Shown: positions 9,742-37,220 of the stretch, piece after piece
How the letters are laid out: the number at the start of each line of letters is the position of its first letter
Position numbering within the stretch: the stretch's first letter is position 1
DNA from: Mesotaenium endlicherianum
Taxonomy: Eukaryota
Length of the DNA: 39,602 nt
Assembly (NCBI GenBank): GCA_009602735.1
Contig: WELA01001243.1
Location: 186,445 to 226,046, forward strand
Direction: 5' to 3'
The notes under the pieces: generated by a model
Database searches by the model: none
Seen by the model: only the letters and a program-made list of their open reading frames with translations
What the model was told of the DNA's origin: nothing
Position numbers and translations under genes: made by a program

Positions 9742-10460
9742 TGAAATGAATTGACTTACCAAATAGGCGATTAACAATTAATAAAGATCTTTATATCAGC
9801 AAGTAATCTTTATGGATTTTCCATTAACTGATTAAACGGCAAAAGGACAACACACTAGCAGTGAACAACACTCGTAAGTCATATGCGAGTAAACCAGCAT
9901 CAATCATGCAATCAGTAAACTCATACATAAGCAAGGTTAGAAGACAGTGCATATCAATGGCTTCTCGCCTTGGATTCAGATCTCTCTCAGTAAGCCATAC
10001 AAGAGAGTTGGCCTCGTTTCCGAATGCCAAACTCGAGAGCAATGCCTAGCATATGTACATGGAATGAGTTTAGTGTTCAACGGCCAGTGCGATGGCACCG
10101 CCTACCCGGGAGTTAACCACGTTGGTACGACCTCGGTTGACCAAATCCACCGCCATCTCCCATCATCCCGAATCGCCATCTATCATAGGGATGTTATCTG
10201 GCCATTCATCTAGCATACCACACTTACATGCATATCGAGGCAGTCGCTGCTACCGAGTACGGAAGTCAGCTGGCTGTCAAAGAATGTGTCAGAAAGCTGA
10301 CTTAAGCTGACTTCAGCCTGCTGCTTTCGGCTGAGTCATTAAACTGATATTAAATATAAAGTCCAGCAGACTGATTATTAACTAGAGTTCAGAAGGCTGA
10401 ACTTATTTAACTGTTATATTTAAATGAATATTATATCAACCAATATACTGATTCAATACA
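9742..10460 (-). repeat. 3' LTR of element B (719 bp)
   Basis: Reverse complement of the element A LTRs; abuts PPT. Confidence 0.93.
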
Positions 10461-10496
10461 ATCCCTCCAACTTAACATGTTGTCGCCTCAACAACA
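10461..10496 (-). promoter_or_regulatory. Element B terminal PPT with upstream hairpin
   Basis: Minus strand TGTTGTTGAGGCGACAACA-TGTT-AAGTTGGAGGGAT directly before LTR TGTA. Confidence 0.85.
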
Positions 10497-10579
10497 CTGA
10501 CACAGGGTACATAGGTTTCCCCAACTGAAATTACTGATCCCTCTCCCATCCAGCATGCTATGCCCTTGGCCCTCCGCCC

Positions 10580-12244
10580 TTAGGAGGGAGATACCCCTGG
10601 GGCCCCATGGTCAGGGGAGTCAGTCCTCCTCCTGTCTTGGGGTCTTCTGAAGCCTGTCAGACATGGAGGTTCCGTGTAGGGACCCGTCGGAGAACGCAGT
10701 AACTGTGCTGTTTCCTCCTGCACGATCTGAAACTGAATGGAGGCAGCCTTCTCCTGGGCATCCCTCAAACTGACTGGTACATATACCAGCATCCCAGAAG
10801 GATGTTGCATGACATGAGCTAAGGGTACATGCCCTCTCTGCGAGGGAGATGCCGGCAGGCCTCTGGCTATATCTCTAGCAGCCCTCCTGTCTGCCCTGTC
10901 TGACTGGGTCTCCTTGCCTGGAGATGGGGTCTGTCCTCTGGCAGTTCCCAGCCAAGTGATATCCTCCTCTTCAGCGAGTTGCTGCATGGCCAACCCCGTC
11001 TTCTCCCTTATAGGGGATGTGGCAGGCGTCAGGATCACGGCGGGGCTAGTGTCCTCCTCCTCGCCTTCCTCCTCGTCTTCCTCTGACTCCTCCTCCTCTC
11101 CGTCCCCGGGTTCCTCTGAGACTTCTGGGGTCTCTTCTGTCAGCTGCTCCAGCTCTTCCCGAGAAAAAGAATATCCTACTGACCTTCCCCTTTTGGGTGC
11201 TGGTGGGGGCTGCTGAGTCCGGACCGCATAGAGGTCCTTTTCCCCCTGCTTACTTGCCCATTTGGCATAAGCGTGCTTCCCTTTTGAGAATGACTCTCGG
11301 GCCCTGCTTCTGTCCCCCTGCATCTCTTGGCTCATGCAGTCTCTGACTCCATCCAATCTTGGGTCCCAAGCCGCAATGTGAGGGGGCAATACTATGTTCC
11401 CCTTTAGGTCTGTCAGGAAATCCTCATCCGTCGCCCTGTCATTCTGCTGGTCCCTCATGTTGATGGTCATCCACCGCCAATCGGTGGGCTTTTGGAAGAA
11501 GGCAGGGTCTGTCCTTTTAAGAGTACAAGGGTACCAGTGCCCTGCAAAGTCTAGCTGCCTGGTTTCCTTGGCCAAGAATTCCCAGCTCCTTCTCACCACC
11601 TCATTATACATGGCCTTGAACCTGTTATGGGATGTAGAGTCCTTAAAGCTGTCCGCGTCCATGGGGATCATCCTGATGACCCTATCTTCCCTCCAGATAC
11701 CAGGAATCGATACAGATCCTGCTTCATTCACCTGGGCCATTGCCTTGGCCTCTCTGACCGTATACCCTACCATCCTGGCGTAATCGTGGTAGAGGAGGAG
11801 CCCCGTGCTGACCTCTATATACTTGTCAAAGTTTTCGGATGCCTCCCCTTCCCTCTGGAAGATGTCCTTTTGTGACTCACTGCGACTTCTCTGAGCATAC
11901 TTGAAGGCCTCCTCCAGTAGATCGAAGCCCTTGCCCAGTACTGTGTAGCGGTAGCTGCTGATTCTCCTCTGCTCTTCTTCCGCCTGCTGCTTCCGCTTCT
12001 CCTCAGCTTACCTCTCCTCCTCTGCTTTCTTGGCCTCCTCTGCAGCTTTTCTGTCCAGTTCTTCCTGCCTCAGTCTGGCCTGTTTCTCCTCCTCCTTCTT
12101 CTTCTGTGCCTCCCGCTGTTGTTGGAGTCGTTGTGATTCCCGAGCGGAGATGGAGGATGATTCGATGTGTCCACGGAATTGCAAGTATTCTGCATGTGCC
12201 TCTTCCGCCCTTCTCTTCCTCTTGAGTTCCGACTTTTGAGTCAT
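10580..12244 (-). pseudogene. ORF3 accessory gene of element B (554 codons, one in-frame TAA at 12008-12010)
   Basis: ORF-track frames 12008-12253 and 10580-11773 are the same frame; shares YRYTV, YNEV.RRSWE, PTDWRWMT, LPPHIA.WDPRL, FSKGKHA, GHVPLA.V.QHP.GM with element A ORF3. Confidence 0.85.
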
Positions 12245-12528
12245 CCTGCTCAATCATAAACACAATGCAGTTAGTGAAGTCATGATATTTTGCCGATACT
12301 GAGTGCCCTTGATGAAGAGGAACGCGATCGAGAGAGTTCCGAGTGTGAAATACCTGGTGTGAGTGAATATAAGGGAAAATTGAGTTAGATAGAAAGTGAG
12401 TGTGAGCGCAGGTTGAGTGTGTAATATGGTTATCAGAGATTTTCCGACTGATCCCGAAACAGAATACCACTCCCCCCAACTTAATTTTAAAGGTGGGCTG
12501 CCTGTCACAACTGTCACTAACTGTCACA

Positions 12529-12565
12529 TCCCCCTCCAACTTATATGGAGACAGGACCTCCTGTC
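12529..12565 (-). promoter_or_regulatory. Internal hairpin + PPT-like module after pol in element B
   Basis: Minus strand GACAGG-AGGT-CCTGTC then AAGTTGGAGGGGGA-TGTGACAG; a further PPT-like AAGTTGGGGGGAG at 12470-12482. Confidence 0.65.
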
Positions 12566-12592
12566 ACCTTTCCATGTCTACTGAAGGGACAG

Positions 12593-15174
12593 TTAGGGCG
12601 GTGCCCCAGCCGCCCCAAGGTGGAACCGTTCAACGCCCCTTTGGCATTGGTCAGCTGGCTTTTAAACTCCCAAGTGTCCCCAGAGGCATCGTAACCCTTC
12701 CATCGGATGAGGTACTTCATGACATATTTAGACGATCGACGGACCGAGCGAGCGTCTAAAATCTCATATTCCTCAGGGTCACCGTCCTGGACAGCAGGGA
12801 CCAGTCCCGGTTGGACAGGTAACCGACCTGTAAACAGTGTATCACCTTTGATGTATGGTTCCAAAAAGGAGACATTAAAGACCGGCTGACCCTTGTAGTC
12901 AATTTGTAAGCATTTTGACTGACACGACGCACTACCGAATATGTACCGACCCAGACAAGGCCAAGCTTTTCGGTGACCACACCAGGGTGGTACAGGTGCT
13001 GAGAATGCAGTTTAACTAAATCGTCCTTAGAAAATGTCAACTCCCGACGGTGTTGATTAGCGTATTTTTGTTGGTTTTCGTGGGCTCCCTGCAGGTTCTG
13101 CTGGACTTCTGACAAGGTGTCAGCAAACTCCTGAGTTAACTGGAGGGAGATCGGATTTTCAATCCCTTCAGGGTCAGTTAAAGATTCCCCCAGTCCATCA
13201 AAAGGAGACTTAGGGACTCTACCCAGGTTGAGTTCAAAAGGAGTCTTGCCCGTTGACGCGTGCACCGCACTGTTGACCGCAAACTGAATTTGAGGCAACA
13301 GGTCATCCCAATTATCTTGTTTTTGGTTAATATATGCTCTCAGCACATCCTGCAGAACTCGGTTAGTTCTTTCAGTCTGCCCATCAGTCTGAGGGTGGTT
13401 TGCTATGCTGAGCAGCTGTTTGACTCCCATTTACCCATTAAAGCTCTCCAGAACTTAGAGGTATATTTCGGATCTCGGTCTGAGATGATATTAGAGGGTA
13501 GCCCATGTTGGCATACTACATGGTTGTAGAACTGTCTCGCTGTTTCGAGTGCAGTTACTTTGACAGTTGTGGGGATGAAAATGACCATTTTTGTCAGTTT
13601 ATCCACGACTACCAGTATCGAATTATGCCCATTAGCCGTTCGTGGTAGTGTGATCACCCAGTCCATGGATATAGTTTCCCAGCCCCCGCTGAGATGGGCA
13701 GCGGTTGCAAGAAACCTCCCGGCGGTGTGTGCCTAGACTTATTTCTTTGACACTAATCACAGGACTTCACGTAATTCAAGACCTCCCGGGGCAACCCCTC
13801 CCAATGATAATGTTTTGCCAGTTTGCCAACAGTTTTGGCCTGCCCCAAATGCCCACCCAGTAAACTGTCATGGGCTTGACTCAATAAAAGGGACCTTATT
13901 TTCAAGTTATTAGGAATGACCAGCTTCAGCCTGCCTGAAGTGGTTTCAGTCACCCAGACCCCTCCCTTAAGCTTATACCCGAGTGCAGTAGCACGACACA
14001 CACCAGTAGTGGGGCTGGGCTCAAATGTTGGGTCAGAAAGGTAGGCTTTCCTAAGTTGTTCAAGGAAGGACTTTTTCACCTTTAGTGAAGTGAGTGCACA
14101 CAGGACTTTATCTACAGCATGCTGACTGAAGTTCCTTTCGTGCAAGTCAGGTCTTCTAGAGAGTGCATCAGCAGGATTCAACTTCCCTGGTTTGTAGTCG
14201 ATCTGGACTTGGAACTGCTCCAGCATCTGGCTCCAACGGTTCTCCCTCCTCGACTTTTTCTGAAAGTGGGTCAGAGCTATGATATGTAATCACCTTGAAG
14301 GACTTACCATGTGAGTATGCTTTCCACTGTTTGAGCACATGAATGATAGCTAGCAGCTCTTTATCATGCACTGAGTAATTAATCTCCGCTGAATTAAATT
14401 TCATAGACTTATACAACACAGGGTGCCACTCCTGCCTTACCTTATCATCCTTTGTGGTTTTGTCCGCAGGCTGCAACAAAATAGCACCCATGGCAAAGTC
14501 AGAGGCATCAGTGACTACCTGCACCGGTTTGCTGGGGTCATACACGGCTAGCACTGGGGCAGAACAAAGGGCATCTTTAAGGGTCTGGAAGGCAGCCTGC
14601 TGCTCTTCCCCCCACACATACCCTATGTCTTTCTTAGTAAGGTCAGTCAGTTTACCTTTGTGGAATAATTCCCCATAAATCTTCTGTAGTGATTAGCCAT
14701 CCCGAGGAAGGATCTAACTTCAGAGACAGACTGTGGTACTGGCCAGTCCCTTATGGTCTGAACTTTCTTAGGGTCCACACTGATGCCCTCTTTACTGACA
14801 ACGTGGCCTAAGAATTCTATACTCTTTTAAAAGTTATCACACTTGCTCATTTTAGCATATGACTGATTTCTTTTCAAAATGTCCACGACTGTCTTTAAGT
14901 GTTCAGCGTGCTGAGTCTTATCTTTAGAGAAAATTAAAATATCATGCAGGAAGACTTGCACAAATTTATCCAAATAAAACCGAAAAATGTCATTCATAGC
15001 ACCCATAAAGGTTGCGGGAGCATTAGTCAGTCCAAATGGCATCACGTTGAACTCGTAGTGTCCATAACGTGTGCGGAAGGCAGTCTTGTGTTCATCCCCT
15101 TCAGCAGTTCTGATTTGATGATAACCACTCTTGAGATCTATCTTACTGAACACCTTAGCACCAAATAGGGTATC
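12593..15174 (-). pseudogene. pol: Element B pol, 3' part (RT, RNase H, integrase, chromodomain), frameshifted
   Basis: Fragments nearly identical to element A pol ([41 protein letters not shown]); FLDD mutated to FLHD; several frame breaks. Confidence 0.93.
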
Positions 15175-15179
15175 AAGCT

Positions 15180-15951
15180 TGTAATGAATCAGTATATTAG
15201 TAGATAGAATATTCATTTAAATATAATAGTTAATTAAGTTCAGCCTGCTGAACTTTAGTTATTAGTCAGTTTGCTAGACTTTACTTAATAGTCAGTTTGC
15301 TGAACTTTACTTAATAGTCAGTCTGCTGGACTTTACATAAGTATCAGTTTACTGACTCAATGGAAAGCAGCAAGCTGAAAGTCCATATAAGTCAGCTTGC
15401 TGACACATTCTTTGACAGCAAGCTGACTTCCGTACTCGGTAGCAGCGAACTGCCTTGATATGCATCTAAGTGCGATATGCTAGATGAATAGCCAGATGAC
15501 ATCCCTATGATGGATGGCCATTCGGGATGATGGGAGATGGCGGTGGATTTGGTTAACCGAGGTCCTACCAACGTGGTTAACTCCCGGGTAGGCGGTGCCA
15601 TCGCACTGACCGTTGAACAGTAAACTCATTCCATGTACATATGCTAGGCATTGCTCTCGAGTTCGGCATTCGGAAACGAGGCCAACTCTCTTGTACAGCT
15701 TACTGAGAGAGATCTGAATCCAAGGCGAGAAGCCATTGATACGCACTGTCTTCTAACCTTGCTTATGTATGAGTTTACTGATTTGCATTATTGATGCTAG
15801 TTTACTCTCATTTGACTAACGAGTAGTATTCCCTGCTAGTGTATTGTCCTTTGCCGTTTAACGAGTTAACGGAAATACCATAAAGATTACTTGCTGATAT
15901 AAAGATCTTTATTAATTGTTAATCGCCTATTTGGTAAGTCGATTCATTTCA
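15180..15951 (+). repeat. 5' LTR of element A (772 bp)
   Basis: TGTAATGAATC...GATTCATTTCA with terminal inverted repeat; followed by PBS. Confidence 0.95.
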
Positions 15952-15952
15952 G

Positions 15953-15964
15953 TGGTATCGGAGC
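15953..15964 (+). promoter_or_regulatory. Primer-binding site, tRNA-iMet type
   Basis: TGGTATCGGAGC 1 nt after the LTR; one A>G difference (G:U compatible) from the plant TGGTATCAGAGC. Confidence 0.9.
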
Positions 15965-15985
15965 AGTTATCACAGTCGTCTTGGT

Positions 15986-17464
15986 ATGGTAAGGACAAGG
16001 TCTGAAACTAGCAACTCCCGAGACATGGAGAACCAGGATAACGAGAATGTCGAAAACCAGGCTCAAAGCCATGTAGCGGGAAACCGTACCTATTCGGAAG
16101 CAGTAGCGGATACTGCAGCTAGGGAGGCAGCAAATGAGGCAGCTGCTATTGCCTCAGTCGCAGCTCAGCAAGCTGAGGAGGAGATAGCCAGACTAGAAGC
16201 TGAACAAGTAGCAAAGGCCGCTGAAGATATACAAAGGAGGGAAGGACAGCCAGCTGACGAGCGCACTGTTGAAGAACTTATGGCATCAAGGGCCAATGTT
16301 CTGAACCCACCTCCTGCCGTACAACTCAATGTACCCCTAGGTCAAATACGTGACCGGCTGAATGCGGCAGGAATTGCTGCTGCAGGAGCAAGAGGGATTG
16401 TTGAGGACACTACTCAGCGAGTAGATGCCAATGCTGCTGCTGCATTTGCTAATCTACCACCCCAAAATGTAGACTTGGGAGCATTGTTCGTTCAGATGCA
16501 GTCGCAAATGGCGACCATGTATCAGTCCCAGCAGGAGGACAAAAGAATCATAATGTCCCTACTCCGGGACAGAGACCAACTGGGGTCTCACACCACTAGT
16601 GGTGGTGGCCGAGGGCCTAGTAAGCCCAAGCCGAAACCTCCCCAGGACTATGATCCTGAGGGAAACAGAAAATATTACCTGATCAAGTTTCTCGCGGATG
16701 TTGAGCAGTGGCTGGAGAACTACCCAGAACTGCAAGATTACGAGAAGGTCAGGCACACCGGTGCGCTACTGAAAGGCAGTGCCGCAGACTGGTGGCTTTA
16801 CTGGAAGGAAGAGCGTAAGGCTCGGCAACTCGGTGACCCTACGTGGGTAGAGTTTGTCGAGAAGTTGCATGAGAAGTTTGATGTCATCAACCAGCAGGAG
16901 AAAGCTATCTATGCGATGATCTCCCTGACACTGAAGCAGACCACTTCAGTTGCTGAGTTTGCTCAAAAGTTCCAAGAGAACATGATGAAGCAGCCTGATT
17001 TGCCAGAACGGTATAGGATAGCATACTTCAGGTATGGCTTGAAATCCGAGGTCTCTGGTCATTTTGCTGAGAAAAAGTATGAGAAACTGGCTGACTTGAT
17101 CCAGGATGCTGACGCCTGGGATCAGCAGCAGTTCAATCACAAGCGCCAGAGTAACGCTTTGGTGTCTAAGATTGTCAAAAAGCCCCACGGTTCCTACAAT
17201 GCAGTTGAAGGAGACCAGGCTGAGGATAATCAGGGTGATGAATATGAGTATGAGTACAATGCTATTCAGTCTAGAGGTAGAGGTGGTCCCTCTCGAGGTG
17301 GCTATGGAAGGGGTGGTGGTAGGACTAAGCCGAGACCAGCCTCAGCAAAATCTACTTGCTACCATTGTCAGCAGAAAGGCCACTACAGAGAACAGTGTCC
17401 GGTCAAGCACCTGCCTAAGGTCGAGAGAAAAGACCAGCCTTTAAAAGACAGCAACAGTCAGTAA
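15986..17464 (+). CDS. gag: Gag (492 aa) of element A
   Basis: Capsid-like [10 protein letters not shown]...[22 protein letters not shown] repeats, CCHC knuckle [14 protein letters not shown]. Confidence 0.95.
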
Positions 17465-17487
17465 TCCAGTCTACTGACTGTGAGGAT
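17440..17487 (+). promoter_or_regulatory. Predicted -1 ribosomal frameshift signal joining gag and pol
   Basis: T TTA AAA heptamer in gag frame (17440-17446), 7-nt spacer, perfect 10-bp stem ACAGTCAGTA/TACTGACTGT; the -1 frame is open into pol. Confidence 0.8.
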
Positions 17488-20400
17488 GCTAGAGATAGTG
17501 AGTCGTCACTAGCTGCCCTCGTAGCAGGTATTATGGGTCCTGCTGAACTGGATTCACTATGCATGCCTGACAACCAGATAAAGGAGACCATCAGCAATAT
17601 AGACGTCCAGAGAGTGCACACTCTGGATGCTCTTGTTCCACCTGATGTCCAACATTTCTTTGCTACGTCAGGAGAACAATGCGAAAGTCAGGAAAAGACA
17701 GTCCCCCCTATCCTACTGCATTGCATGATTGCAGGTAGGAAGGTGAGGGCATTTGTTGACGGAGGGGCGTCACATACTTTTATCCACAAGGACTTAGTTA
17801 AGCGGCTAAGGCTGCCTACTGTCACCCAAGGGAATAGAAAAATATTCCTTGGAGATGCCTCAAGTATCCCGGGAGGAGTTATAACCAAGCCTATTGAGGT
17901 CCAGTTAGGTTCTGGCATTGCAGTTCTAACTGAAACGCTTACATTTGAGGTACTCAACACTGGCTTTTATGATCTCGTGCTAGGCAGGTCCTGGCTTAAT
18001 AGACATCAAGCTGAAGTGTGTTGGAGCAGAGGTACAGTTAAAGTGAGAGGAGCCAGTGATGGGCAGACTGACTTGGCACCCACCAGTGCTCTTCCTCTTG
18101 TCCTGTGTGGATGGCAAATGAAGGAAAAGAAGAGGCTTCCAGAAGGATGCAAGTTGCTGAATGCAATGGAGTTCGTCAAAAGCTGGAACCAGAAGGAAGA
18201 CAGAATGTTCTGTCTGCTGCTAAGAGAGGTACCTCCTCAACCTGAAGAAGTGGTTGAGAAAAAGGTACACCCTCCGGAACACCCTACTGCTGCAAACATT
18301 GTTGCTCAGTACACGGATGTGTTTAATATGCCTCCAGGACTACCCCCTAAGCGGGAAGTAGATCATAGGATTGATTTATTACCTGGTAGCCAGCCACCCT
18401 GGCAACGCACGTATGGCTTGTCTTATTTGGAGAGTGAGGAGTTGAAAACACAGATTGCAGAGCTGGAGGAAAATGGTTACATTTCTCCCAGTAAATCACC
18501 GTACGGCGCACCTATCCTATTTGTTAAGAAAAAGGATGGCAGTATGCGGATGTGTGTGGATTACAGAGCCCTGAACAGAATTACAGTAAAGAACAAGTAT
18601 GCTTTACCCAGAATCGAGGACTTGCTTGATACCCTGTCTGGCGCTAAGGTGTTCAGTAAGATAGATCTCAAGAGTGGTTATCATCAAATCAGAATTGCTG
18701 AGGGGGATGAACACAAGACTGCTTTCCGCACACGTTATGGACACTATGAGTTCAACGTGATGCCATTTGGACTGACTAATGCTCCTGCTACCTTTATGGG
18801 TGCTATGAATGACATTTTCAGACCTTATTTGGATAAGTTTGTGCAAGTTTTCCTGGATGATATTTTAATTTTCTCTAAAGATGAAGCTCAGCACACTGAA
18901 CACTTAAAGAAAGTGCTGGACACTCTGCGGAAAAATCACTTGTATGCTAAAATGAGCAAGTGTGATTTCTTTAAGGAAAGTATTGAATTCTTAGGCCACG
19001 TTGTCAGTAAAGAGGGCATCAGTGTGGATCCTAAGAAAGTCCAGACCATAAGGGACTGGCCAGTACCACAGTCTGTCTCTGAAGTTAGATCCTTCCTCGG
19101 GTTGGCTAACTACTATAGGAGATTTATTGAGAATTATTCCACAAAGGCCAGTAAACTGACTGACCTTACTAAGAAAGACATCGGGTATGTGTGGGGGGAA
19201 GAGCAGCAGGCTGCCTTCCAGACCCTTAAAGATGCCCTTTGTTCTGCCCCAGTGCTAGCCGTGTATGACCCCAGCAAACCGGTGCAGGTGGTTACTGATG
19301 CCTCTGATTTTGCCATGGGTGCTATTTTGTTGCAGCCTGCTGACAAAACCACAAAGGATGGTAAGGTACGGCAGGAGTGGCATCCTGTGTTGTATGAGTC
19401 TATGAAATTTAATCCAGCGGAGATTAATTACTCAGTGCATGATAAAGAGCTGCTAGCTATCATTCATGTACTCAAACAGTGGAGAGCATACTTACATGGT
19501 AAAGCTTTTAAGGTGATTACAGATCATCTAGCTCTGACCCACTTTCAGAAGAAGTCCAAGCTGTCGAGGAGGGAGAACCGCTGGAGCCAGATGCTGGAGC
19601 AGTTCCAAGTCCAGATCGACTACAAACCAGGGAAGTTGAATCCTGCTGATGCACTCTCTAGAAGACCTGACTTGCAAGAAAGGAACTTTAGTCAGCATGC
19701 TGTAGATAAAGTCCTGTGTGCACTCACTTCACTAAAGGTGAAAAAGTCCTTCCTTGAACAACTTAGGAAAGCCTACCTTTCTGACCCAACATTTGAGCCC
19801 AGCCCCACTACTGGTATGTGTCGTGCTACCGCACTCGGGTATAAGCTCAAGGGAGGGGTCTGGGTGACTGAAACCACTTCAGGCAGGCTGAAGCTGGTCA
19901 TTCCTAATAATTTGGAAATAAGGTCTCTCTTACTGAGTCAAGCTCATGACAGTCTCCTGGGTGGACATTTGGGGCAGGCCAAAACTGTTGGCAAACTGGC
20001 AAAACATTATCATTGGGAGGGGTTACCCCGGGAGGTCTTGAAATATGTCAAGTCCTGTGACCAGTGTCAGAGAAATAAGTCTCGGCACACACCACCCGGA
20101 GGTCTCTTGCAACCGCTACCCATCCCAGCGGGACGCTGGGAAACTATATCCATGGACTGGGTGGTCTCACTACCAAGAACTGCCAACGGGCATGATTCAA
20201 TACTGGTAGTCGTGGATAAACTGACAAAAATGGTCATTTTTATCCCCACAACTGTCAAAGTGACTGCACTCGAAACAGCGAGACAGTTTTACAACCATGT
20301 AGTATGCCAACATGGGCTCCCTTCTAATATCATCTCAGACAGAGACTCAAAATTCACCTCTAAGTTCTGGAGAGCTTTAATGGGGTTAATGGGAGTCAAA

Positions 20401-21249
20401 CAGCTGCTCAGCACAGCAAACCACCCTCAGACTGATGGGCAGACTGAAAGAACTAACCGAGTTCTGCAGGAGGTGCTGAGAGCATATATTAACCAAAAAC
20501 AAGATAATTGGGATGACCTGTTGCCTCAAATTCAGTTTGCGGTCAACAGTGCGGTGCACGCGTCAACGGGCAAAACTCCTTTTGAACTCAGCCTGGGTAG
20601 AGTCCCTAAGTCTCCTCTAGATGTGCTAGGGGAATCTTTAACTCACCCTGAAGGGATTGACAACCCGGTCTCCCTCCAGTTAACTCAGGAGTTTGCTGAC
20701 ACCCTGTCAGAAGTCCAACGAAACTTGCACACGGCCCAAGAAAACCAACAAAAATACGCTAATCAACACCGTCGGGAACTGACATTTTCCAAGGGGGATT
20801 TAGTCAAACTGCATTCTCAGCACCTGTACCTCCCTGGTGTGGTCAAGAAAAAGCTTGGCCCTGTCTGGGTCGGTCCATATTCGGTGGTCCGTCGTGTCGG
20901 TCAGAATGCTTACAAACTGAACATGTCAGCTGAATACAAGGGGCACCCGGTCTTTAATGTCTCCTTCCTGGAACCGTACATCAAAGGTGATACACTGTTC
21001 ACAGGTCGGTTCCCTGTCCAACCGGGACCGGTCCCCGCTGTCCGGGACGGCGACCCTGAGGAATATGAGGTCGATGAGATTTTAGACGCTCGCTCGGTCC
21101 GTCGATCGTCTAAATATGTCATGAAATACCTCATTCGATGGAAGGGTTACGATGCCTCTGGGGACACTTGGGAGTTTAAGGACCACTTGACCAATGCCAA
21201 AGGGGCGTTGACACGGTTCCACCTTCGGGCCGCTGGAGTCCCTCCATAA
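17440..21249 (+). CDS. pol: Pol of element A: protease, RT, RNase H, integrase (HHCC, DDE, GPY/F), C-terminal chromodomain (first Met 17533)
   Basis: [64 protein letters not shown]...[17 protein letters not shown]...[16 protein letters not shown]. Confidence 0.97.
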
Positions 21250-21276
21250 CTGTCATTTCAGTTGACACGGGAAGGT

Positions 21277-21312
21277 GACAGGCGGTCCTGTCTCCATTTA
21301 AGTTGGAGGGGA
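21277..21312 (+). promoter_or_regulatory. Internal hairpin + PPT-like module after pol in element A
   Basis: GACAGG-CGGT-CCTGTC (21277-21292) then AAGTTGGAGGGGA (21300-21312), same core as the terminal PPT. Confidence 0.65.
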
Positions 21313-21485
21313 AAATATATGACAGTTAGTGAGCGAGAGCGATAAAAACACACTCATACGTTTATGTGTAGCGCATCGCAACTACGTCAACTTTTAGCAA
21401 TCATCCTGTAAGGTAAACAGCAGCGAAGCCACTATACTAAATACTAACATACTTCCTGCAATCCCTATGACAAAGGTCCATATCC

Positions 21486-21519
21486 TACTAACTTGTGCCC
21501 TGGTTACATGTGCAGGATG
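21486..21519 (+). promoter_or_regulatory. Branch point and 3' splice site immediately upstream of ORF3 ATG
   Basis: TACTAAC (21486-21492) ... TGTGCAG|G ATG (AG 21514-21515); equivalent CACTAAC...GAGCAG|G ATG in element B (12276-12242). Confidence 0.7.
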
Positions 21520-23193
21520 GCGCCCACCACACAAAAGGAGGACAGAAAGCGCAAGGCAGAAGAAGCCAGGAGGACAATGGAGCAATACCAGAAGGAGCTG
21601 GCGGCGACGTCCCTCACCAGGAGAGAACAAGAAAGGGTCCGCAAACAACAAGAGGCGGCAGAAGAGGCACAGAGGAAGAAGGATCAGGAAGCGGAAAACC
21701 TCAGGAAGGCTGAGGAGGAGAGACAGAAGAAACAGCAAGAAGAAGCGGCAGCGGCAGAAGAGGAGAAAAGAAAAAAGATTGAAGCGGACAGACAGAAGAG
21801 CTTGGCCACTTACAGGTATACTGTGGTGGGTGGCCAAAACTTCGATAACCTGAAGGAAGCATTGCTGGCAGCCCAGGAGATCAACAGGCTGGAACAGACA
21901 ACACTGCTACAGAAGGAAGGAGCTACAGCACTGGACAGGTACATCGAGACACACACCGGCGTGGTCCTTTACGAAGATTATGCTAAGATGGTGGGCTATA
22001 CAGCAGAGCAGGCCCGGTATCTCGCAGATGATTCAGAGGACAAGCCGGTCCCCATACCGGGAATAGTGGGAGATCAGAGACTCATCCGGATGGTGAGCAT
22101 GCGGCCCGATAGCTTTAAGGATACGGTATTCTACCTCACACTCCTGCCAGCTTACAATGAAGTTGAGAGAAGGAGCTGGGAGTACTTGGCCAGGGAAGCA
22201 GGACAGCAGATGTTCTCTCCCCACTGGTTCCCGTGTAAACTGAGGAAGGCTGAGCACGGACCCCAGTACTACCAGCAGCCAACAGACTGGAGGTGGATGA
22301 CCGTCACAAATAAGAAGCAGGAGTGTGACCGAGCCCAACCGGATGACTTCCACTATGGCCTAGACGGCTATCTCATCCTACCACCTCACATTGCCCCTTG
22401 GGACCCCAGGCTGAATGGATGCCTGAGCAATATGAATGCAGAGACCAAGGAACATAGGAGGAGGGGAAGAGACTACTTCTCTAAGGGAAAGCATGCCTTT
22501 GTCAAATGGGCAAAGAATGCAGGCCGGATAGATATCAGTAGGCTGAAGGCCAAGCAACCTCCAGCGCGCCCTAAGAAAGGGAGGTCGGTAGACTACTCCA
22601 TGTCTACTAGGGAGCAGGACGACTTAGTGGACGAGACCCCTACTCTCTCCGAGGAGGAGGATGAGGAGGATGAGGAAGAAGAACAAGGCAGAGGAGAAGC
22701 ATCAGCAGCAGGTACTCAGGATACCCAGGGACAGGCAGTGGCACTTCCTAAAGAACCACGATCAGGTGTGTGGAATGTGATCCCCGTTATGGCGACAACT
22801 GGACCCCGCGCTCGCTCCCCCAGCCCACCTGCCCAAGCAGGGGAAGAAGCTGATCTGACTGTACTGGGCAGCAGACACAGGCAGAAATCCCCAGAGGACA
22901 GGGGTGCCAGAAGAGGGACACGCGGGTGGGCCAGAGGTATGCCAGCCTCCCCCTCCGCTCAGGGGCATGTACCTCTAGCCAATGTATTTCAGCATCCTAC
23001 TGGAATGCCTGTCTATGTGGGAATCAACACCCAAATAGTTGAAGAGCAGGCCACCATCCTCCGTTCTCCTCGAGGGCCAACTTTAGAGCAAACAGGGTTC
23101 TTTAGAAGGCCAGCTGACAGACCTAGAGGGCTGTCCAGATCTAGGTCCAGATCTCCGTCCCCTGATCCTGAAGCCCCAGGAACCACCCCTTAA
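21517..23193 (+). CDS. ORF3: uncharacterised 558-aa accessory protein (N-terminal charged coiled coil, aromatic-rich central domain, acidic tract, SP/RS-rich tail)
   Basis: Intact ORF between pol and 3' LTR; homologous copies in elements B and D with conserved motif blocks; no hydrophobic segment seen. Confidence 0.9.
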   Translation: MAPTTQKEDRKRKAEEARRTMEQYQKELAATSLTRREQERVRKQQEAAEEAQRKKDQEAENLRKAEEERQKKQQEEAAAAEEEKRKKIEADRQKSLATYRYTVVGGQNFDNLKEALLAAQEINRLEQTTLLQKEGATALDRYIETHTGVVLYEDYAKMVGYTAEQARYLADDSEDKPVPIPGIVGDQRLIRMVSMRPDSFKDTVFYLTLLPAYNEVERRSWEYLAREAGQQMFSPHWFPCKLRKAEHGPQYYQQPTDWRWMTVTNKKQECDRAQPDDFHYGLDGYLILPPHIAPWDPRLNGCLSNMNAETKEHRRRGRDYFSKGKHAFVKWAKNAGRIDISRLKAKQPPARPKKGRSVDYSMSTREQDDLVDETPTLSEEEDEEDEEEEQGRGEASAAGTQDTQGQAVALPKEPRSGVWNVIPVMATTGPRARSPSPPAQAGEEADLTVLGSRHRQKSPEDRGARRGTRGWARGMPASPSAQGHVPLANVFQHPTGMPVYVGINTQIVEEQATILRSPRGPTLEQTGFFRRPADRPRGLSRSRSRSPSPDPEAPGTTP

Positions 23194-23270
23194 GGTGACA
23201 GGCTGAAAAGATAGTCAGTAAGGGAGGCTGGTCAGGGTCAGTTTCTTTATTTAAAGCTTTTGCAGTTTAA

Positions 23271-23306
23271 TGTTGTCGAGGCGACAACAAGTTAAGTTGG
23301 AGGGAT
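23271..23306 (+). promoter_or_regulatory. Terminal hairpin + PPT of element A
   Basis: TGTTGTCG-AGG-CGACAACA (23271-23289) then AAGTTGGAGGGAT (23294-23306) abutting LTR TGTA. Confidence 0.88.
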
Positions 23307-24025
23307 TGTAATGAATCAGTATATTAGTGGATATAATATTCATTTAAATATAATAGTTAATTAAGTTCAGCCTGCTGAACTTTAGTTAATAATCAGTCTG
23401 CTGGACTTTACATAATTATCAGTTTAATGACTCGGCCGAAAGCAGCAGGCTGAAGTCAACTTAAGTCAGCTTGCTGACACATTCTTTGACAGCCAGCTGA
23501 CTTCCGTACTCGGTAGCAGCGAACTGCCTTGATATGCATCTAAGTGCGATATGCTAGATGAATGGCCAGATGACATCCCTATGATGGATGGCTATTCGGG
23601 ATGATGGGAGATGGCGGTGGATTTGGTTAACCGAGGTCCTACCAACGTGGTTAACTCCCGGGTAGGCGGTGCCATCGCACTGACCGTTGAACAGTAAACT
23701 CATTCCATGTACATATGCTAGGCATTGCTCTCGAGTTCGGCATTCGGAAACGAGGCCAACTCTCTTGTACAGCTTACTGAGAGAGATCTGAATCCAAGGC
23801 GAGAAGCCATTGATACGCACTGTCTTCTAACCTTGCTTATGTATGAGTTTACTGATTTGCATTATTGATGCTAGTTTACTCTCATTTGACTGACGAGTAG
23901 TATTCCCTGCTAGTGTATTGTCCTTTGCCGTTTAACGAGTTAACGGAAATACCATAAAGATTACTTGCTGATATAAAGATTTTTATTAATTGTTAATCGC
24001 CTATTTGGTAAGTCGATTCATTTCA
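23307..24025 (+). repeat. 3' LTR of element A (719 bp)
   Basis: Direct repeat of 15180-15951, followed by TSD AAGCT. Confidence 0.95.
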
Positions 24026-24030
24026 AAGCT

Positions 24031-25213
24031 AGTCCTTGATTCTCGGTAAAGCATACTTGTTCTTTACCGTACTTCTGTTCAGGGCTCTGTAATCCGCACA
24101 CATCCGCATACTGCCATCCTTTTTCCTAACAAATAGGATGGATGCGCCGTAAGGTGATTTACTGAGAGAAATATAACCATTTTCCTCAAGCTCTGCAATC
24201 TGTGTTTTCAACTCCTCGCTCTCCACATAAGACAAGCCATAAGTGCGTTGCCAGGGTGGCTGACTACCAGGTAATTAATCAATCCTATGATCTACTTCCC
24301 GCTTAGGGGGTAGTCCTGGAGGCATATTAAATACATCCGTGTATCGAGCAACAATTTTCGCAGCAGTAGGGTGCTCCGGAGGGCTTACCTTTTTCTCCAC
24401 CACTTCTTCAGGTTGAGGAGGTACCTCTCTTAGCAGCAGACATACTATTCTGTCTTCCTTCTGGTTCCAGCTAATGACGAACTCCATTGCATTCAGCAAC
24501 TTGCATCCTTCTGGAAGCCTCTTGTTTTCCTTCATTTGCCATCCACACAGGACAAGAGGAAGAGCACTGGTGGGTGCCAAGTCAGTCTGCCCATCACTGG
24601 CTCCTCTCACTTTAACTGTACCTCTGCTCCAACACACTTCAGCTTGATGTCTATTAAGCCAGGACCTGCCTAGCACGAGATCATAAAAGCCAGTGTTGAG
24701 TACCTCAAATGTAAGCGTTTCAGTTAGAACTGCAATGCCAGAACCTAACTGGACCTCAATAGGCTTGGTTATAACTCCTCCCGGGATACTTGAGGCATCT
24801 CCAAGGAATATTTTTCTATTCCCTTGGGTGACAGTAGGCAGCCTTAGCCGCTTAACTAAGTCCCTGTGGATAAAAGTATGTGACAACCCTCCGTCCACAA
24901 ATTCCCTCACCTTCCTACCTGCAATCATGCAATGCAGTAGGATAGGGGGGACTGTCTTTTCCTGACTTTCGCATTGTTCTCCTGACGTAGCAAAGAAATG
25001 TTGGACATCAGGTGGAACAAGAGCATCCAGAGTGTGCACTCTCTGGATGTCTATATTGCTGATGGTCTCCTTTATCTGGTTGTCAGGCATGCATGGTGAA
25101 TCCAGTTCAGCAGGACCCATAACACCTGATACGAGGGCAGCTAGTGACGACTCACTATCTCTAGCATCCTCACAGTTAGTAGATTGGATTATTGACTATT
25201 GCTGTCTTTTAAA
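24031..25213 (-). pseudogene. pol: Element B pol, 5' part (protease and RT N-terminus)
   Basis: ORFs 24275-25120 and 24029-24235 match element A pol; YALPRIKD continues across element A into LDTLFGAK; premature stops. Confidence 0.92.
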
Positions 25214-26585
25214 GGCTGGTCTTTTCCCTCGACTTTTGGGAGGTGCTTGTCTGGACACTGCTCTTTGAAGTGACCTGGCTGCTGGCAATGGAAGCAAATC
25301 GATTTTGCTGAGGCTGGTCTCGGCTTAGTCCTACCACCACCTCTTCCATAGCCGCCTCGAGGAAAACCACCTCTACCTCTAGACTGTATGGCATTATACT
25401 CATGCTCATACCCATCACCCTGATCATCCTCAACCTGGTCTCCTTCAATTGCATCGTAGGAAACGTGGGGCTTTTTGACAATCTTAGACACCAAAGCATT
25501 ATTCTGGCGCTTGTGATTGAACTGCTCTTGATCCCAGGCGTCAGCATCCTGGATCAAGTCAGCCAGTTTCTCATACTTTTTCACAGCGAAATGACCAGAG
25601 ACTTCGGATTTCAAGCCATACCTGAAGTATGCTATCCTATACCGTTCTGGCAAGTCATCGCATTGATAGCTTTCTCCTGCTGGTTGATGACATCAAGCTT
25701 CTCATGCAACTTCTCGACAAACTCTACCCACGTAGGGTCACCGAGTTGCCGAGCCTTACGCTCTTCCTTCCAGTAAAGCCACCAGTCTACGGCACTGCCT
25801 TTCAGTAGCGCACCGGTGTGCTTGACCTTCTCGTAATCTTGCAGTTCTGGGTAGTTCTCCAGCCACTGCTCAACATCCGCGAGAAACTTGATCAGGTAAT
25901 ATTTTCTGTTTCCCTCAGGATCATAGTCCTGGGGAGGTTTCGGCTTGGGCTTACTAGGCCCTCGGCCACCACCACTAGTGGTTTGAGATCCCAGTTGGTC
26001 TCTGTCCCGCAGTAGGGACATTATGATTCTTTGGTCCTCTCGTTGGGACTGATACATGGTCGCCATTTGCGACTGCATTTGAACGAACAATGCTCCGAAG
26101 TCTACACTCTGGGGTGGTAGTCTAGCAAATGCAGCAGCAGCATTGGCATCTACTCGCTGAGTAGTGTCCTCAACAGTCCCTCTCGCTCCTGCAGCAGCAA
26201 TTCCTGCCGCATTCAGCCGGTCACGTATTTGACCTAGGGGTACATTGAGTTGTACAGCTGGAGGTGGGTTCAGAACATTGGCCCTTGTTGCCATAAGTTC
26301 TTCAACAGTGCGCTCGTCAGCTGGCTGTCCTTCCCTCCTTTCTGTATCTTCAGCAGCCTTTGCTAATTTTTCAGCTAATTTGGCTCTCTCCTCCTCAGCT
26401 TGCTGTGCTACGACTGCGGCAATAGCAGCTGCCTCATCTGCAGCCTCTCTAGCTGCAGTATTTGCCACTGCTTCAGAATAGGTACGGGTTCCCGCTACAT
26501 GGCTTTCCGCCTAGTTTTCGACATTCTCGTTATCCTGGTTCTCCATGTCTCGGGAGTTGCTAGTTTGAGACCTTGTCCTTACCAT
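25189..26585 (-). pseudogene. gag: Element B gag, broken by an ~79-bp frameshifting deletion near 25655
   Basis: ORFs 25632-26468 and 25189-25653 match element A gag; segment equivalent to ~16920-16999 is missing, with short TGA microhomology. Confidence 0.92.
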
Positions 26586-26606
26586 ACAATGAAGACTGTG
26601 ATAACT

Positions 26607-26618
26607 GCTCCGATACCA
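26607..26618 (-). promoter_or_regulatory. PBS of element B (tRNA-iMet type)
   Basis: GCTCCGATACCA on + strand = TGGTATCGGAGC. Confidence 0.9.
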
Positions 26619-26619
26619 C

Positions 26620-27367
26620 TGAAATGAATCGACTTACCAAATAGGCGATTAACAATTAATAAAAATCTTTGTATCAGCAAGTAATCTTTACGGATTTTTC
26701 GTTAACTGATTAAACGGCAAAAGAACAATACACTAGCAGTGAATAATACTCGTAAGTCATATGCGAGTAGACCAGCATCAATCATGCAATCAATAAATTC
26801 ATACATAAGCAAGGTTAGAAGACAGTGCGTATCAATGGCTTCTCGCCTTGGATTCAGATCTCTCTCAGTAAGCTGTACAAGAGAGTTGGCCTCGTTTCCG
26901 AATGCCAAACTCGAGAGCAATGCCTAGCATATGTACATGGAATGAGTTTACTGTTCAACGGCCAGTGCGATGGCATTGCCTACCCGAGAGTTAACCACGT
27001 TGGTAGGACCTCGATTAACCAAATCCACCGCCATCTCCCATCATCCCGAATCGCCATCTATCATACGGATGTCATCTGGCCATTCATCTAGCATACCACA
27101 CTTACATGCATATCGAGGCAGTCGCTGCTACCGAGTACGGAAGTCAGCTGGCTGTCAAAGAATGTGNCAGCAAGCTGACTTAAGCTGACTTCAGCCTGCT
27201 GCTTTGGGCTGAGTCATTAAACTGATATTAAATATAAAGTCCAGCAGACTGATTATTAACTAGAGTTCAGCAGGCTGAACTTATTTAACTAGNGTTCAGC
27301 AGGCTGAACTTATTTGACTGTTATATTTAAATGAATATTATATCAACCAGTATACTGATTCATTACA
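26620..27367 (-). repeat. 5' LTR of element B (748 bp; one extra 29-bp U3 repeat; two N bases)
   Basis: Direct repeat of 9742-10460; ends CTGATTCATTACA on + strand. Confidence 0.93.
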
Positions 27368-29145: not shown

Positions 29146-29620
29146 TGTAACGATCCGCCGCGTGGCCGGATGCGGCGAATGCGACACGTCGCGGATGCGA
29201 CCGAAAGCTTCGATTTAAATTGTATAAGTACAATTGGTGCACGATCAAAGTACCTCAAATTACCTTTTCGTTCGTATCGCTACATTGGTACCGGAGCGCA
29301 AACGTATGCAATCTTGTCCAAGAGACGAGGGTTCAAATCCCGCAGGGTGAAAAACTCGTCGATGGTACGACCGTACGGCGATCTTTGGATTGTACGAAGA
29401 AAGGACACTATCCCGAAACAACGTCCCTCGCGCCGCCGGGGCTTGAGTGCCCGGGACGTGCACACTTGTGGGTGGGAGGATCGTAAAGATCCGCCGCGTG
29501 GCCGGATGCGGCGCGTGCGACACGTCGCGGATGCGACCGGAAGTATTGGTTTGAATTGTATAAGTGCAATTGGCGAGCGATCAAAATACCTCGACTTACC
29601 TTTTTGTTCGTATCGCTACA
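29146..29620 (+). mobile_element. TRIM (terminal-repeat retrotransposon in miniature), 475 bp
   Basis: 139-bp direct repeats 29146-29284 and 29482-29620 (TGTAACGAT...ATCGCTACA), PBS-like TGGTACCGGAGC 29286-29297, hairpin then PPT GGGTGGGAGGA before the second repeat; flanks AGAAT/AGTAC. Confidence 0.85.
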
Positions 29621-31646: not shown

Positions 31647-32839
31647 TGAAATAAATCGACTTACCAATATGAGAGGGGGATGCTGGCTGACCTCTGGCTG
31701 CCTTCTTGGCAGCCCTTCTGTCAGCTCTGTCTGATTGAGTCTCACCTCCTGGAATGGGACTCCTCCTAATAAAACTCCCCAGCCACTGGAGATCTGGGTC
31801 TCTTGGTGGGCTAGTATCCCCAAGCTGCTGCAGGGCTGCATGTGCAAAGGCCCTTCCAGTGGGGGATGTAGCGGGGGTTTGTGCCTCAACAGGACTAGAC
31901 TCCTCTCCGGCGCCTTCCTCTTCTTTGTCCTCCTGTTCCTCTGAGACTTCTGGAGTCTCTTTGGTCATCTCCTCCACCCGTTCCCGAGAAAAAGAGTATC
32001 CCACTGACCTCCCCCTTTTGGGTGCAAGTGGGGGTTGGTGGGTCCTGACCGCATACAGGTCTTTCTCCCCTTGCTTACTAGCCCATTTGGCATAAGCATG
32101 CTTCCCCTTAAAACAAGAATCTCTAGCCCTGGTCCTATCCTCCTGTGTCTCCTGACTCATGCAGTCCCTGACTCCATCCAGTTGTGGATCCCATGCTGCA
32201 ATGTGAGGTGGCAACACTATCTTACCCTGCAAATCTGCCAGGAAATCGTCTTCCTCAGCTCTGTCACTATGCTAGTCCTTCATGGTGATGGTCATCCAGC
32301 GCCAATCAGTGGGCTGTAGAACAAAAGCAGGATCCGTCCTCTTCAAAGTACAGGGGTACCAGTGACCTGAGAAATCCAGCTGGCTGGACTCCCTTGCCAG
32401 AACTCCCAGCTTCTTCTCTCCACCTCGTTATACATGGCCTTGAACCAATTGTGGGAAGTGGCATCCTTGAAGATGTCTGTATGCATAGAGATCAACCTGA
32501 TGACCCTGTTTGTGTCCCAAATCCCAGGTATTGGCACCGTTTCAGATTCACCTATCTGGGCCAATGCTTTGGCCTCCCGGATCGTATACACCACCATCCT
32601 GGCATAGTCATGGTACAGTAGAAGCCCCGTGCTGACTTCTATGTACTTGTCAAAACCTTGGGCTATCTCCCCTTCCCGCTGCAGTATGTCCCTCTGTGAT
32701 TCACTTCGGTTCCTCTGGGCGTACTTGAAGGCCTCCTCCAAAAGATCAAAGCCCTTTCCCATCACCGTGTAGCGGTAGCTTTTGATTCTCCTATGTTCCT
32801 CCTCTGCCTGCTGCTTCTGTCTCTCCTCAGCAAACCTTT
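31647..32839 (-). pseudogene. Remnant D: third ORF3 copy (B-like), fused to the last ~21 nt of a family LTR and cut by element C
   Basis: ORFs 32343-32765 and 31603-32232 closely match element B ORF3; TGAAATAAATCGACTTACCAA at 31647-31667 equals the LTR terminus. Confidence 0.85.
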
Positions 32840-36800: not shown

Positions 36801-37220
36801 TCAAGCAAATCGCTAATTTGGTCCTTCATTTCGTTCATCTCCAACGAACTGAGGCGATAAATCGGTCTCCAAGTCAGTTGAGAATTGGGAATGAGAGGAA
36901 TCGTATGTCCAATACCTTATCAGGCGGAAGCCCGGCTAGTATTTCACTTGGAGACACTGATTTGTACTTTTGCAAAAGAGCAAAAAGTTCAACTGTAAGT
37001 GTCTCTTCATGACCAATCACGTCTAACACGGGCTCTTCCGTAAAGAGCTTAGTGGAAGTGACTGGGGAATCAGGTCGCAGTAATCCAAAGAAAACATTTT
37101 GACCTCGTTTTGCCAAACGTCTAGCTTGCTTGTGGACAAGAGAGGAGTCTTCGAAGGACTTTCAATGGCCCTATCGGGCGTAAGAGACTGGAGAGTAATC
37201 GTCCTTGTCCCATTGCTTAA
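33900..37220 (-). pseudogene. pol: Element C pol with multiple frameshifts and stops
   Basis: RMCIDYRALN, VYLDDILVYS, NVADPLSR, EAHDSPYSSHHG, WESMSLDFVVELP, HPVFHVNLLKPF, chromodomain WDVEEVLGH...LLIKWPDYDSSWNSY. Confidence 0.92.

What the first reader, a model, noticed from the sequence alone, without database searches (positions are those of the whole stretch)
21517..23193. Chromovirus family carrying a conserved, non-env third gene (ORF3) of unknown function
Seen: a sense ORF of ~555 aa between pol and the 3' LTR, present in three copies (A intact, B one stop, D remnant). It has an N-terminal E/K/R/Q coiled coil with KRK, a ~250-aa core with conserved blocks (YRYTV, LYxDYAxMVGYT, IPGI, YNEVxRRSWE, HWxPCxL, PTDWRWMT, LPPHIAxWDPRL, FSKGKHA), a basic PKxGRS motif, an acidic tract, then an SP/RS-rich tail with a conserved GHVPLAxVxQHPxGM island. 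No signal peptide or TM helix is visible. Established: extra 3' ORFs are typical of errantiviruses, Athila/Tat and SIRE elements, not chromoviruses. Inference: a nuclear regulatory protein, such as an anti-silencing factor analogous to VANC of VANDAL transposons or a Rev/Tat-like RNA regulator. Motif conservation across deep divergence implies purifying selection.
Basis: partly seen in the sequence, partly recalled or inferred. Interest (0 to 1): 0.88.

Follow-up and report, generated by a model that had tools for sequence, protein, structure and literature searches.

The report
Swappable orphan gene in algal retrotransposon
A Gypsy-type jumping gene in a green alga carries a real, selected third gene of no known family, found in very different versions on near-identical copies of the element, and it likely makes a spliced nuclear helper protein that would help the element stay active.

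Summary
Observation confirmed. ORF3 (21517-23193, 558 aa) lies between a chromodomain-bearing pol and the 3' LTR of an intact, young Ty3/gypsy element (A). A sits inside sister element B. The host is a zygnematophyte alga. ORF3 is under purifying selection (B vs D dN/dS 0.07-0.15) and has no homologue among 1.84 billion representatives, in Pfam or in PDB. Three additions. (1) A and B share 91-95% nucleotide identity over gag, pol and LTRs (pol dS 0.14), yet their ORF3s are saturated at synonymous sites (41% aa identity): ORF3 versions move between backbones. (2) The cassette is bracketed by two copies of the polypurine tract. (3) Both ORF3 starts keep a branch point and 3' splice site one base before the ATG in otherwise unalignable leaders, pointing to env-style splicing; no spliced read was seen in six low-coverage RNA runs. 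Corrections: the N-terminus looks like an ER/K single helix rather than a coiled coil, D's backbone is not in the window, and chromoviruses do carry extra ORFs (18% of Tekay have a sense 3' one). Function is untested. The scan noted orphan ORF3s in other genomes, none similar in sequence.

The parts
15180..15951 (+). Element A 5' LTR (TG...CA); U3 holds 26-nt tandem repeats (4.2 copies, 15246-15355)
   Evidence: TSD AAGCT on both sides
15934..15939 (+). Predicted splice donor G|GTAAGT at the LTR's 3' end (present in all four LTRs and in D's LTR stub)
   Evidence: use as donor is inferred, no joint seen
15953..15964 (+). Primer-binding site, tRNA-Met-like (assignment recalled)
15986..17464 (+). 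gag (capsid, zinc knuckle), intact
17440..17446 (+). Predicted -1 frameshift heptamer T TTA AAA in the gag/pol overlap, kept in B
17419..21249 (+). pol frame: protease, RT, RNase H, integrase, SH3, chromodomain with aromatic-cage residues
21298..21313 (+). Internal PPT copy (PPT1), 13 of 13 nt identical to the terminal PPT; A/B nucleotide homology ends at 21332
21486..21516 (+). Predicted branch point TACTAAC and 3' splice site CAG|G, one base before the ORF3 ATG; same layout in B
21517..23193 (+). ORF3, A type, 558 aa: ER/K helix (about 9-98), conserved core (99-345), PKKGRS, acidic tract, SP/RS-rich tail with a conserved island (477-497)
23271..23305 (+). Short hairpin and terminal PPT (PPT2); A/B homology resumes at 23271
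23307..24025 (+). Element A 3' LTR (97.5% to the 5' LTR; only 4 of the 18 differences lie after alignment column 300)
10580..12244 (-). ORF3, B type, 554 codons with one stop at codon 79
12245..12276 (-). B-type branch point CACTAAC and acceptor CAG|G before the ATG
12470..12543 (-). Two internal PPT copies in B's leader (starting 12543 and 12484)
9742..27367 (-). Element B as a whole (LTRs 26620-27367 and 9742-10460; TSD CTAAG/CCAAG), with A inserted into its pol near codon 402
31647..32838 (-). ORF3 remnant D (third version, closer to B) joined at 31668 to the last 22 nt of the family's LTR

Best explanation
ORF3 is a genuine, selected accessory gene of an algal chromodomain Ty3/gypsy family that likely is expressed, like env, from a spliced subgenomic RNA and likely encodes a nuclear protein that would act in trans on the element's own LTR chromatin to keep it transcribed against host silencing. 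Steps. (1, shown) The gene is intact in a young element and conserved at the protein level. (2, shown) Very old ORF3 versions sit on near-identical gag-pol-LTR backbones, so the cassette and the backbone have been re-assorted. (3, inferred) The re-assortment came from template switching between co-packaged RNAs, with crossovers in the shared flanks next to the two PPT copies. (4, inferred) An LTR transcript is spliced from the donor at 15934 to the acceptor at 21515, removing PBS, gag and pol (5.6 kb) and leaving the ORF3 ATG one base after the joint. (5, inferred) The protein enters the nucleus through its basic motifs; the 250-aa core binds its target, the ER/K helix is a stiff spacer, the acidic and SP-rich parts recruit or are regulated by host factors. 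(6, weakly inferred) The target is the LTR, possibly its 26-nt U3 repeats. Odds: real accessory gene 0.95; spliced expression 0.7; nuclear regulator of some kind 0.55; chromatin-level activation or counter-silencing 0.3-0.35.
For: Selection: B vs D dS about 1.3-1.4, dN 0.10-0.19, dN/dS 0.07-0.15, differences concentrated at third codon positions (0.10/0.10/0.42 in the second half of the core); A vs B pS 0.80 (saturated), pN 0.34, dN 0.45. Backbone: pol A vs B dS 0.14, dN 0.034 over 988 codons; synonymous differences 87 of 677 sites in pol against 131 of 166 in the ORF3 core; backbone dS is itself patchy, 0.065-0.345 over seven segments (chi-square p 7e-7), as expected from repeated recombination. 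Both types occur in independent public data: an X1 contig matches 21253-22728 with 2 differences, and X1, X13 and X16 show B-type leader as loose ends at 21311; X4 holds B-type contigs. Splice signals: of 1385 ATGs on both strands of the window, 16 have CAGG directly before and 5 have ACTAAC 16-45 nt upstream; both ORF3 starts have both, while the leaders around them do not align. Rotifer ORF3s are reported as separate spliced units (PMC5408684 passage) and Bagy2 env-like RNA is spliced (PMC7264820). Nuclear features: K[KR]xR at 351-356 in all three copies, no TM or signal peptide. Precedent: algal gypsy elements carry epigenetic cargo; VANC targets form tandem repeats (abstract of PMC5735166), and this LTR has 26-nt repeats whose number varies between LTR copies.
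Against: No spliced joint in 6 RNA runs (3 laid on A; 3 on B; 6-24% of each run read). Depth at the A start was 0-2.7, so that blank is weak; at the B start X14 had about 33-fold depth with no joint listed, though the stranded runs show those reads to be antisense. A-type ORF3 had no reads at all in X10. The splice pattern was noticed first and counted afterwards, on two related sequences. No fold could be predicted (mean pLDDT 35.6 and 37.7) and no DNA- or RNA-binding domain was detected. No similarity to VANC or any Pfam extra-ORF family. VANC and its targets co-diverge, whereas here two very different ORF3s serve nearly the same LTR, which fits a host target or an enzyme as well. The RS repeat of A is not kept in B (10 against 1 RS/SR pairs in the tail). 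One re-assortment event, not recurrent swapping, would explain A vs B.
Confidence: 0.4

Rival explanations
1. ORF3 works after transcription: it binds the element's RNA (for example the hairpins beside the two PPT copies) to export unspliced genomic RNA, balance splicing, or block small-RNA silencing (Rev-like or suppressor-like).
For: A spliced element needs a way to keep unspliced RNA; short hairpins precede both PPTs in A and B; many invariant Trp, Tyr and Arg in the core; SP/RS-rich tail; a silencing-modulating role was proposed for Tekay aORFs.
Against: RS repeat not conserved in B; no RNA-binding domain found; no Rfam match above chance in element A; the hairpins lie in recently shared backbone, so their conservation says little.
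Confidence: 0.2
2. The core is an enzyme of an unrecognised or highly diverged fold (nucleic-acid or chromatin modifying), captured like the DNMT, DAM, AlkB and DEDDy cargo of other retrotransposons.
For: Conserved polar residues shared by A, B and D include His236, Cys240, Asp257, His291, Asp296 and His326; strong constraint; enzyme cargo is common in algal and rotifer gypsy elements.
Against: No hit in Pfam, NCBIfam, PHROGs, PDB or 1.84 billion representatives; the LPPH block lacks the D/N/S of amino-methyltransferase motif IV and no motif I is visible (motifs recalled).
Confidence: 0.17
3. ORF3 is a particle, integration or self-restriction factor: it binds Gag or integrase and controls copy number or excludes competing variants, and different versions persist as incompatibility types.
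For: Old versions persisting on a homogenised backbone is what frequency-dependent selection predicts; it is co-packaged logic that retrotransposon accessory proteins often follow (own knowledge, e.g. Ty1 p22).
Against: Gag and Pol of A and B are 88-96% identical while ORF3 is 41%, so there is no sign of co-divergence; nothing was tested.
Confidence: 0.15
4. ORF3 is an env-like entry protein.
For: Env position, env-like size and predicted env-like splicing.
Against: No signal peptide, TM helix or N-glycosylation site, and only 3 Cys with 1 shared position plus one nearby.
Confidence: 0.02
5. ORF3 is a neutral passenger: a captured host gene or the relic of a nested element.
For: The internal PPT followed by TG-like sequence could be the scar of an older 3' end into which a foreign segment was added.
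Against: dN/dS 0.07-0.15; no relative although the collection holds this host's gene models; no Gag, RT, integrase or recombinase domain. The scar may explain its origin but not its retention.
Confidence: 0.04

Closest known systems
Sense additional ORFs between pol and 3' LTR (aORF-3S / eORF-3'F) of plant LTR retrotransposons (PMC7264820; PMC6317226)
   Same: Position, orientation, over 250 codons, no database match, unknown function; splicing reported for Bagy2.
   Different: No TM segment (many aORF-3S are env-like); host is a zygnematophyte alga; sits in a chromovirus with an aromatic-cage chromodomain, for whose plant clades REXdb lists no eORF; no sequence similarity to the Pfam families of known eORFs.
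Tekay chromovirus extra ORFs (18% 3' sense, 33% 5' sense in REXdb; sunflower Tekay 13-2 5'aORF, PMC11728184)
   Same: Chromovirus with a conserved non-env extra ORF, predicted NLS, much disorder, proposed role in silencing.
   Different: Tekay is seed-plant only with a type II chromodomain; this RT falls outside the supported clade holding the angiosperm hits; ORF3 has a 250-aa aromatic-rich conserved core and is 3'. Direct comparison with Tekay eORF sequences was not possible.
Bdelloid rotifer LTR ORF3s (Vesta, Juno, TelKA; PMC5408684)
   Same: Non-env ORF3 in the env slot, described as separate spliced units, varying between related families.
   Different: There the ORF3s are unrelated enzyme or TM types that differ by family; here homologous but saturated versions of one orphan protein sit on 91-95% identical backbones.
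Algal gypsy elements with epigenetic cargo (KnitGypsy-Dnmt3, PMC5890265; DAM-LTRs and EpiLTRs, bioRxiv 10.64898/2026.05.21.726589)
   Same: Green-algal gypsy or chromovirus-like element with an extra, selected coding module.
   Different: Their cargo is a recognisable methyltransferase, in Klebsormidium fused into Pol; ORF3 is separate and has no methyltransferase match.
VANC anti-silencing proteins of VANDAL DNA transposons (PMC5735166)
   Same: Functional analogy only: element-encoded accessory protein; element has variable tandem repeats in non-coding DNA.
   Different: Different transposon class, no sequence match; VANC targets diverge with the protein, while both ORF3 types share one LTR.

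Membership tests
Ty3/gypsy chromovirus | Domain order gag, protease, RT, RNase H, integrase between LTRs with 5-bp TSD | tested here: met
Ty3/gypsy chromovirus | Chromodomain at the integrase C-terminus | tested here: met
   PF00385 at pol 1216-1268, 34.4 bits over cut-off 25.1; Y, W, Y, W cage-type residues present (cage positions recalled from HP1)
Named chromovirus clade (Tcn1, Chlamyvir, Tekay) | RT phylogeny with reference elements | tested here: inconclusive
   Quick tree of 88 rows (86 of 120 hits kept): A lies outside the 98-99% supported clade with the angiosperm hits, otherwise unresolved; no clade references in hand. Overlapping gag/pol resembles Tcn1, tRNA-type PBS resembles Chlamyvir.
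aORF-3S / eORF-3'F | Sense ORF of at least 250 codons between pol and 3' LTR, separate from the polyprotein | tested here: met
aORF-3S / eORF-3'F | Present in most copies of the family and conserved | tested here: inconclusive
   2 of 2 full elements in the window, plus remnant D; purifying selection; no genome held for a census
env / env-like | Signal peptide and TM anchor, glycosylation sites | tested here: not met
env / env-like | Expression from a spliced subgenomic RNA | tested here: inconclusive
   signals conserved; no joint in 6 low-coverage RNA runs
Described extra-ORF families (Athila ORF1, plant mobile domain, Transposase_28, DUF390, DUF601) and VANC-type domains | Profile match in Pfam | tested here: not met
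   no such family for A or B at E up to 1 or for the four core pieces at E up to 10; profile-profile search against Pfam was not available
VANC-like anti-silencing factor (function) | Sequence-specific binding to the element and loss of its DNA methylation in trans | not testable with these tools
   needs expression, ChIP and methylome
Retrotransposon-borne DNMT / DAM / AlkB / DEDDy / GDSL cargo | Catalytic domain match | tested here: not met

The most novel reading that the evidence does not exclude
An algal chromovirus keeps several ancient versions of an orphan regulatory gene in its env slot, expresses it by env-style splicing, and exchanges the versions between otherwise homogenised backbones as a cassette bounded by duplicated polypurine tracts: a balanced polymorphism of a retrotransposon counter-silencing factor with a new fold.
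Probability: 0.22. Interest if true: 0.78.

Novelty: new variant of a known kind. Interest (0 to 1): 0.47.

Why it matters
What the extra ORFs of plant LTR retrotransposons do is an open question (PMC7264820, PMC11728184). This case offers a young, fully intact element, a protein with a compact conserved core and no homologue, a precise splice prediction testable with one RT-PCR, and two natural versions on the same backbone that allow a swap experiment. If it counters silencing, it would be a retrotransposon analogue of VANC in the algal sister group of land plants. If not, it is one more orphan aORF-3S, a class that is already known.

Tried and rejected
No whole genome is held for this window, so no copy census. 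Homologue searches gave nothing real: word search of residues 90-360, 0 of 4140 candidates at E 0.001, lengths 306-977 only; HMMER profile over 1,835,955,588 representatives gave 2 hits, both repeat proteins whose many weak stretches add up, rejected on reading them; PDB sequences 0 at E 10; Pfam, PHROGs, NCBIfam only sub-threshold hits; metagenome contigs 0 of 212 and 0 of 81 pattern matches, viral contigs 0 of 49; genome contigs not scanned (prokaryotes). The ESM Atlas gave no answer. Two AlphaFold2 models from 4-5 rows had mean pLDDT 35.6 and 37.7; no fold search was run on them. No complex prediction was run. Run search: no RNA holder listed; runs added by species label were laid instead. 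Rfam: 2 chance-level matches. Rejected: coiled coil (no heptads); env; D as ORF3 of the neighbouring pol (a PPT and a TGTAA...TTACA-bounded 920-nt LTR-like segment lie between them; its partner LTR is not in the window); antisense coding (9-24 stops per frame); splicing from the donor right after the gag ATG (would put ORF3 out of frame); methyltransferase motif IV reading of LPPH. Short leader introns (donor-like sites at 21414 in A and 12353 in B) with an internal promoter remain possible and untested. The RT tree is a quick tree, capped at 8 Tanacetum rows and dropping hits covering under 330 aa.

Full report
What is there. The window holds a complete Ty3/gypsy element A on the plus strand (15180-24025), with LTRs of 772 and 719 nt, a perfect 5-bp target duplication, a tRNA-type primer site, an intact gag, a pol in an overlapping frame with a T TTA AAA heptamer, and a C-terminal chromodomain. 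A is inserted into the pol of a sister element B on the minus strand (9742-27367; TSD with one mismatch). A's LTRs differ at 18 positions, 10 of them in one 100-column bin of the tandem-repeat region and only 4 after column 300, so A is young. The first exon of a neighbouring host gene is 100% identical to a gene model labelled jgi/Mesen1; I read that label, from recall, as the zygnematophyte alga Mesotaenium endlicherianum.

The ORF. 21517-23193 is an open frame of 558 codons; shuffles of the cassette never exceed 321. B carries a homologue with one stop at codon 79, and D is a remnant with a frameshift, a stop and both ends lost. The listed motifs are present. There is no signal peptide, TM helix or N-glycosylation site. 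The N-terminal 90 residues lack heptads and are rich in i,i+4 salt bridges, which fits an ER/K single alpha-helix better than a coiled coil.

Selection. B vs D gives dS 1.3-1.4 and dN 0.10-0.19, dN/dS 0.07-0.15, although both copies have decayed since insertion. A vs B is saturated at synonymous sites (pS 0.80) with dN 0.45 (Nei-Gojobori counts). All five other frames are closed. The protein is therefore what is conserved.

The mismatch in age. A and B are 91-95% identical in gag, pol and LTRs, with pol dS 0.14 over 988 codons, yet the ORF3 core differs at 131 of 166 synonymous sites against 87 of 677 in pol. Nucleotide homology stops at 21332 and resumes at 23271. Backbone dS varies from 0.065 to 0.345 among seven segments (p 7e-7). 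So ORF3 versions far older than the backbone have been re-assorted with it, at least once. Both versions are seen in public runs: an A-type contig and B-type leader ends in X1, B-type leader ends in X13 and X16, B-type contigs in X4. D is a third version, but its backbone is not in the window: it is cut by the probable 3' LTR (33759-32840) of another gypsy family and joined to the last 22 nt of its own family's LTR.

Cis signals. A copy of the PPT lies just after pol (21298), identical to the terminal PPT over 13 nt; B has two such copies. It may be a second plus-strand primer or the scar of the older 3' end; neither is shown. Both ORF3 starts are preceded by a branch-point consensus and CAG|G, one base before the ATG, in leaders that otherwise do not align. 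Among 1385 ATGs in the window, 16 have the acceptor pattern and 5 the branch pattern; this count was made after the pattern was noticed. A consensus donor lies 18 nt before the LTR's end. A joint 15933/21516 would give an env-style subgenomic RNA.

Expression. The run search listed no RNA holder. Six RNA runs with the same species label were laid, 6-24% of each. Reads were few, mostly 90-99% alike and often antisense, as expected of read-through from decayed copies. A-type ORF3 had depth 0 in X10, up to about 3 over the core in X13 and X16, and about 20 over 22528-23055 in X13 with a loose end at 22939. B-type ORF3 had sense depth up to 8-9 over its 5' half in X11 and X17. No splice joint was listed. 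Expression and splicing are thus neither shown nor excluded.

Relatives and fold. Nothing real was found in 1.84 billion representatives, the word search, Pfam, NCBIfam, PHROGs, PDB, metagenome or viral contigs. The collection holds this host's gene models, so an annotated host paralogue is unlikely, though the word search covered only lengths 306-977. AlphaFold2 failed. The RT's best hits of near-full coverage are 48-61% identical and the tree does not place it in a named clade.

How it most likely works. An LTR transcript is spliced to free ORF3; the protein goes to the nucleus and acts in trans on the family's LTR chromatin to sustain transcription. Gene reality and re-assortment are shown; splicing, localisation and target are inferred, the target weakly. 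Rivals are an RNA-level regulator, an unrecognised enzyme, and a particle or self-restriction factor. Env and neutral cargo are close to excluded.

What is known. The claim that chromoviruses lack such ORFs is too strong. PMC6317226 (passages; Additional files 4 and 5 read) lists sense 3' extra ORFs in 18% of 782 Tekay elements and none for Tcn1, Chlamyvir, Galadriel, Reina, CRM or unclassified chromoviruses; its Athila row looks shifted against file 4, but the Tekay row has all four cells filled. Additional files 1 and 3 (per-element table, sequences) were too large to read and could hold a relative. PMC11728184 (passages) describes conserved NLS-bearing Tekay 5' aORFs. PMC7264820 (main text read) reviews the class. 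PMC5408684 (passages), PMC5890265 (passages and section 9), bioRxiv 10.64898/2026.05.21.726589 (passages), PMC5735166 (abstract and outline), PMC9289625 (passages) and PMC13524379 (passages) give the nearest parallels. Nine searches (listings only unless named above) showed no paper on this family; Steinbauerova et al. 2011 was not read, and subscription journals are not covered.

Earlier notes of this scan: no look-alike by sequence; two notes on another gypsy type in this genome led to PMC5890265; several notes report orphan ORF3s in gypsy elements of other genomes. They are unchecked and show only that the layout recurs.

Verdict. A real, selected, orphan accessory gene; a new variant of the known aORF-3S kind, marked by old versions on a shared backbone, a second PPT and a conserved splice site. 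Interest 0.47.

Noticed in passing
window 33990-36916 (-) and 32840-33759 (-): A second, decayed chromodomain gypsy family (pol about 42% aa to A). Its PPT and LTR start (TGTAATGA) resemble those of A/B; its 5' part is not in the window.
   Followed up: partly
window 4715-7560 (+): Three-exon host gene of Pfam PF02681 (DUF212, acid phosphatase/haloperoxidase-like), identical in its first exon to a 351-aa gene model.
   Followed up: partly
window 696-3158 (+): 820-codon GC-rich, low-complexity frame with no Pfam match; probably a host exon.
   Followed up: no
window 15246-15355, 23354-23423, 27238-27319: 26-29-nt U3 tandem repeats whose number differs between the LTRs of one element (4.2 against about 2.5 copies in A).
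   Followed up: partly
window 15986-15994 (+): The gag ATG is followed directly by a donor-like GTAAGG in both A and B; joined to the ORF3 acceptor it would be out of frame.
   Followed up: partly
window 19888-21207, reads of X10 and X16: Antisense RNA over the integrase and chromodomain region from diverged copies of the family; X13 shows a 289-nt non-canonical deletion 20723-21013 in 8 reads.
   Followed up: no
window 29138-29284 and 29474-29620: 147-nt direct repeat, 86% identical, 336 nt apart, in non-coding DNA.
   Followed up: no
window 31647-31668 (-): The deletion that joins D's ORF3 to the LTR end falls about 5 nt before the predicted splice donor; probably microhomology.
   Followed up: no
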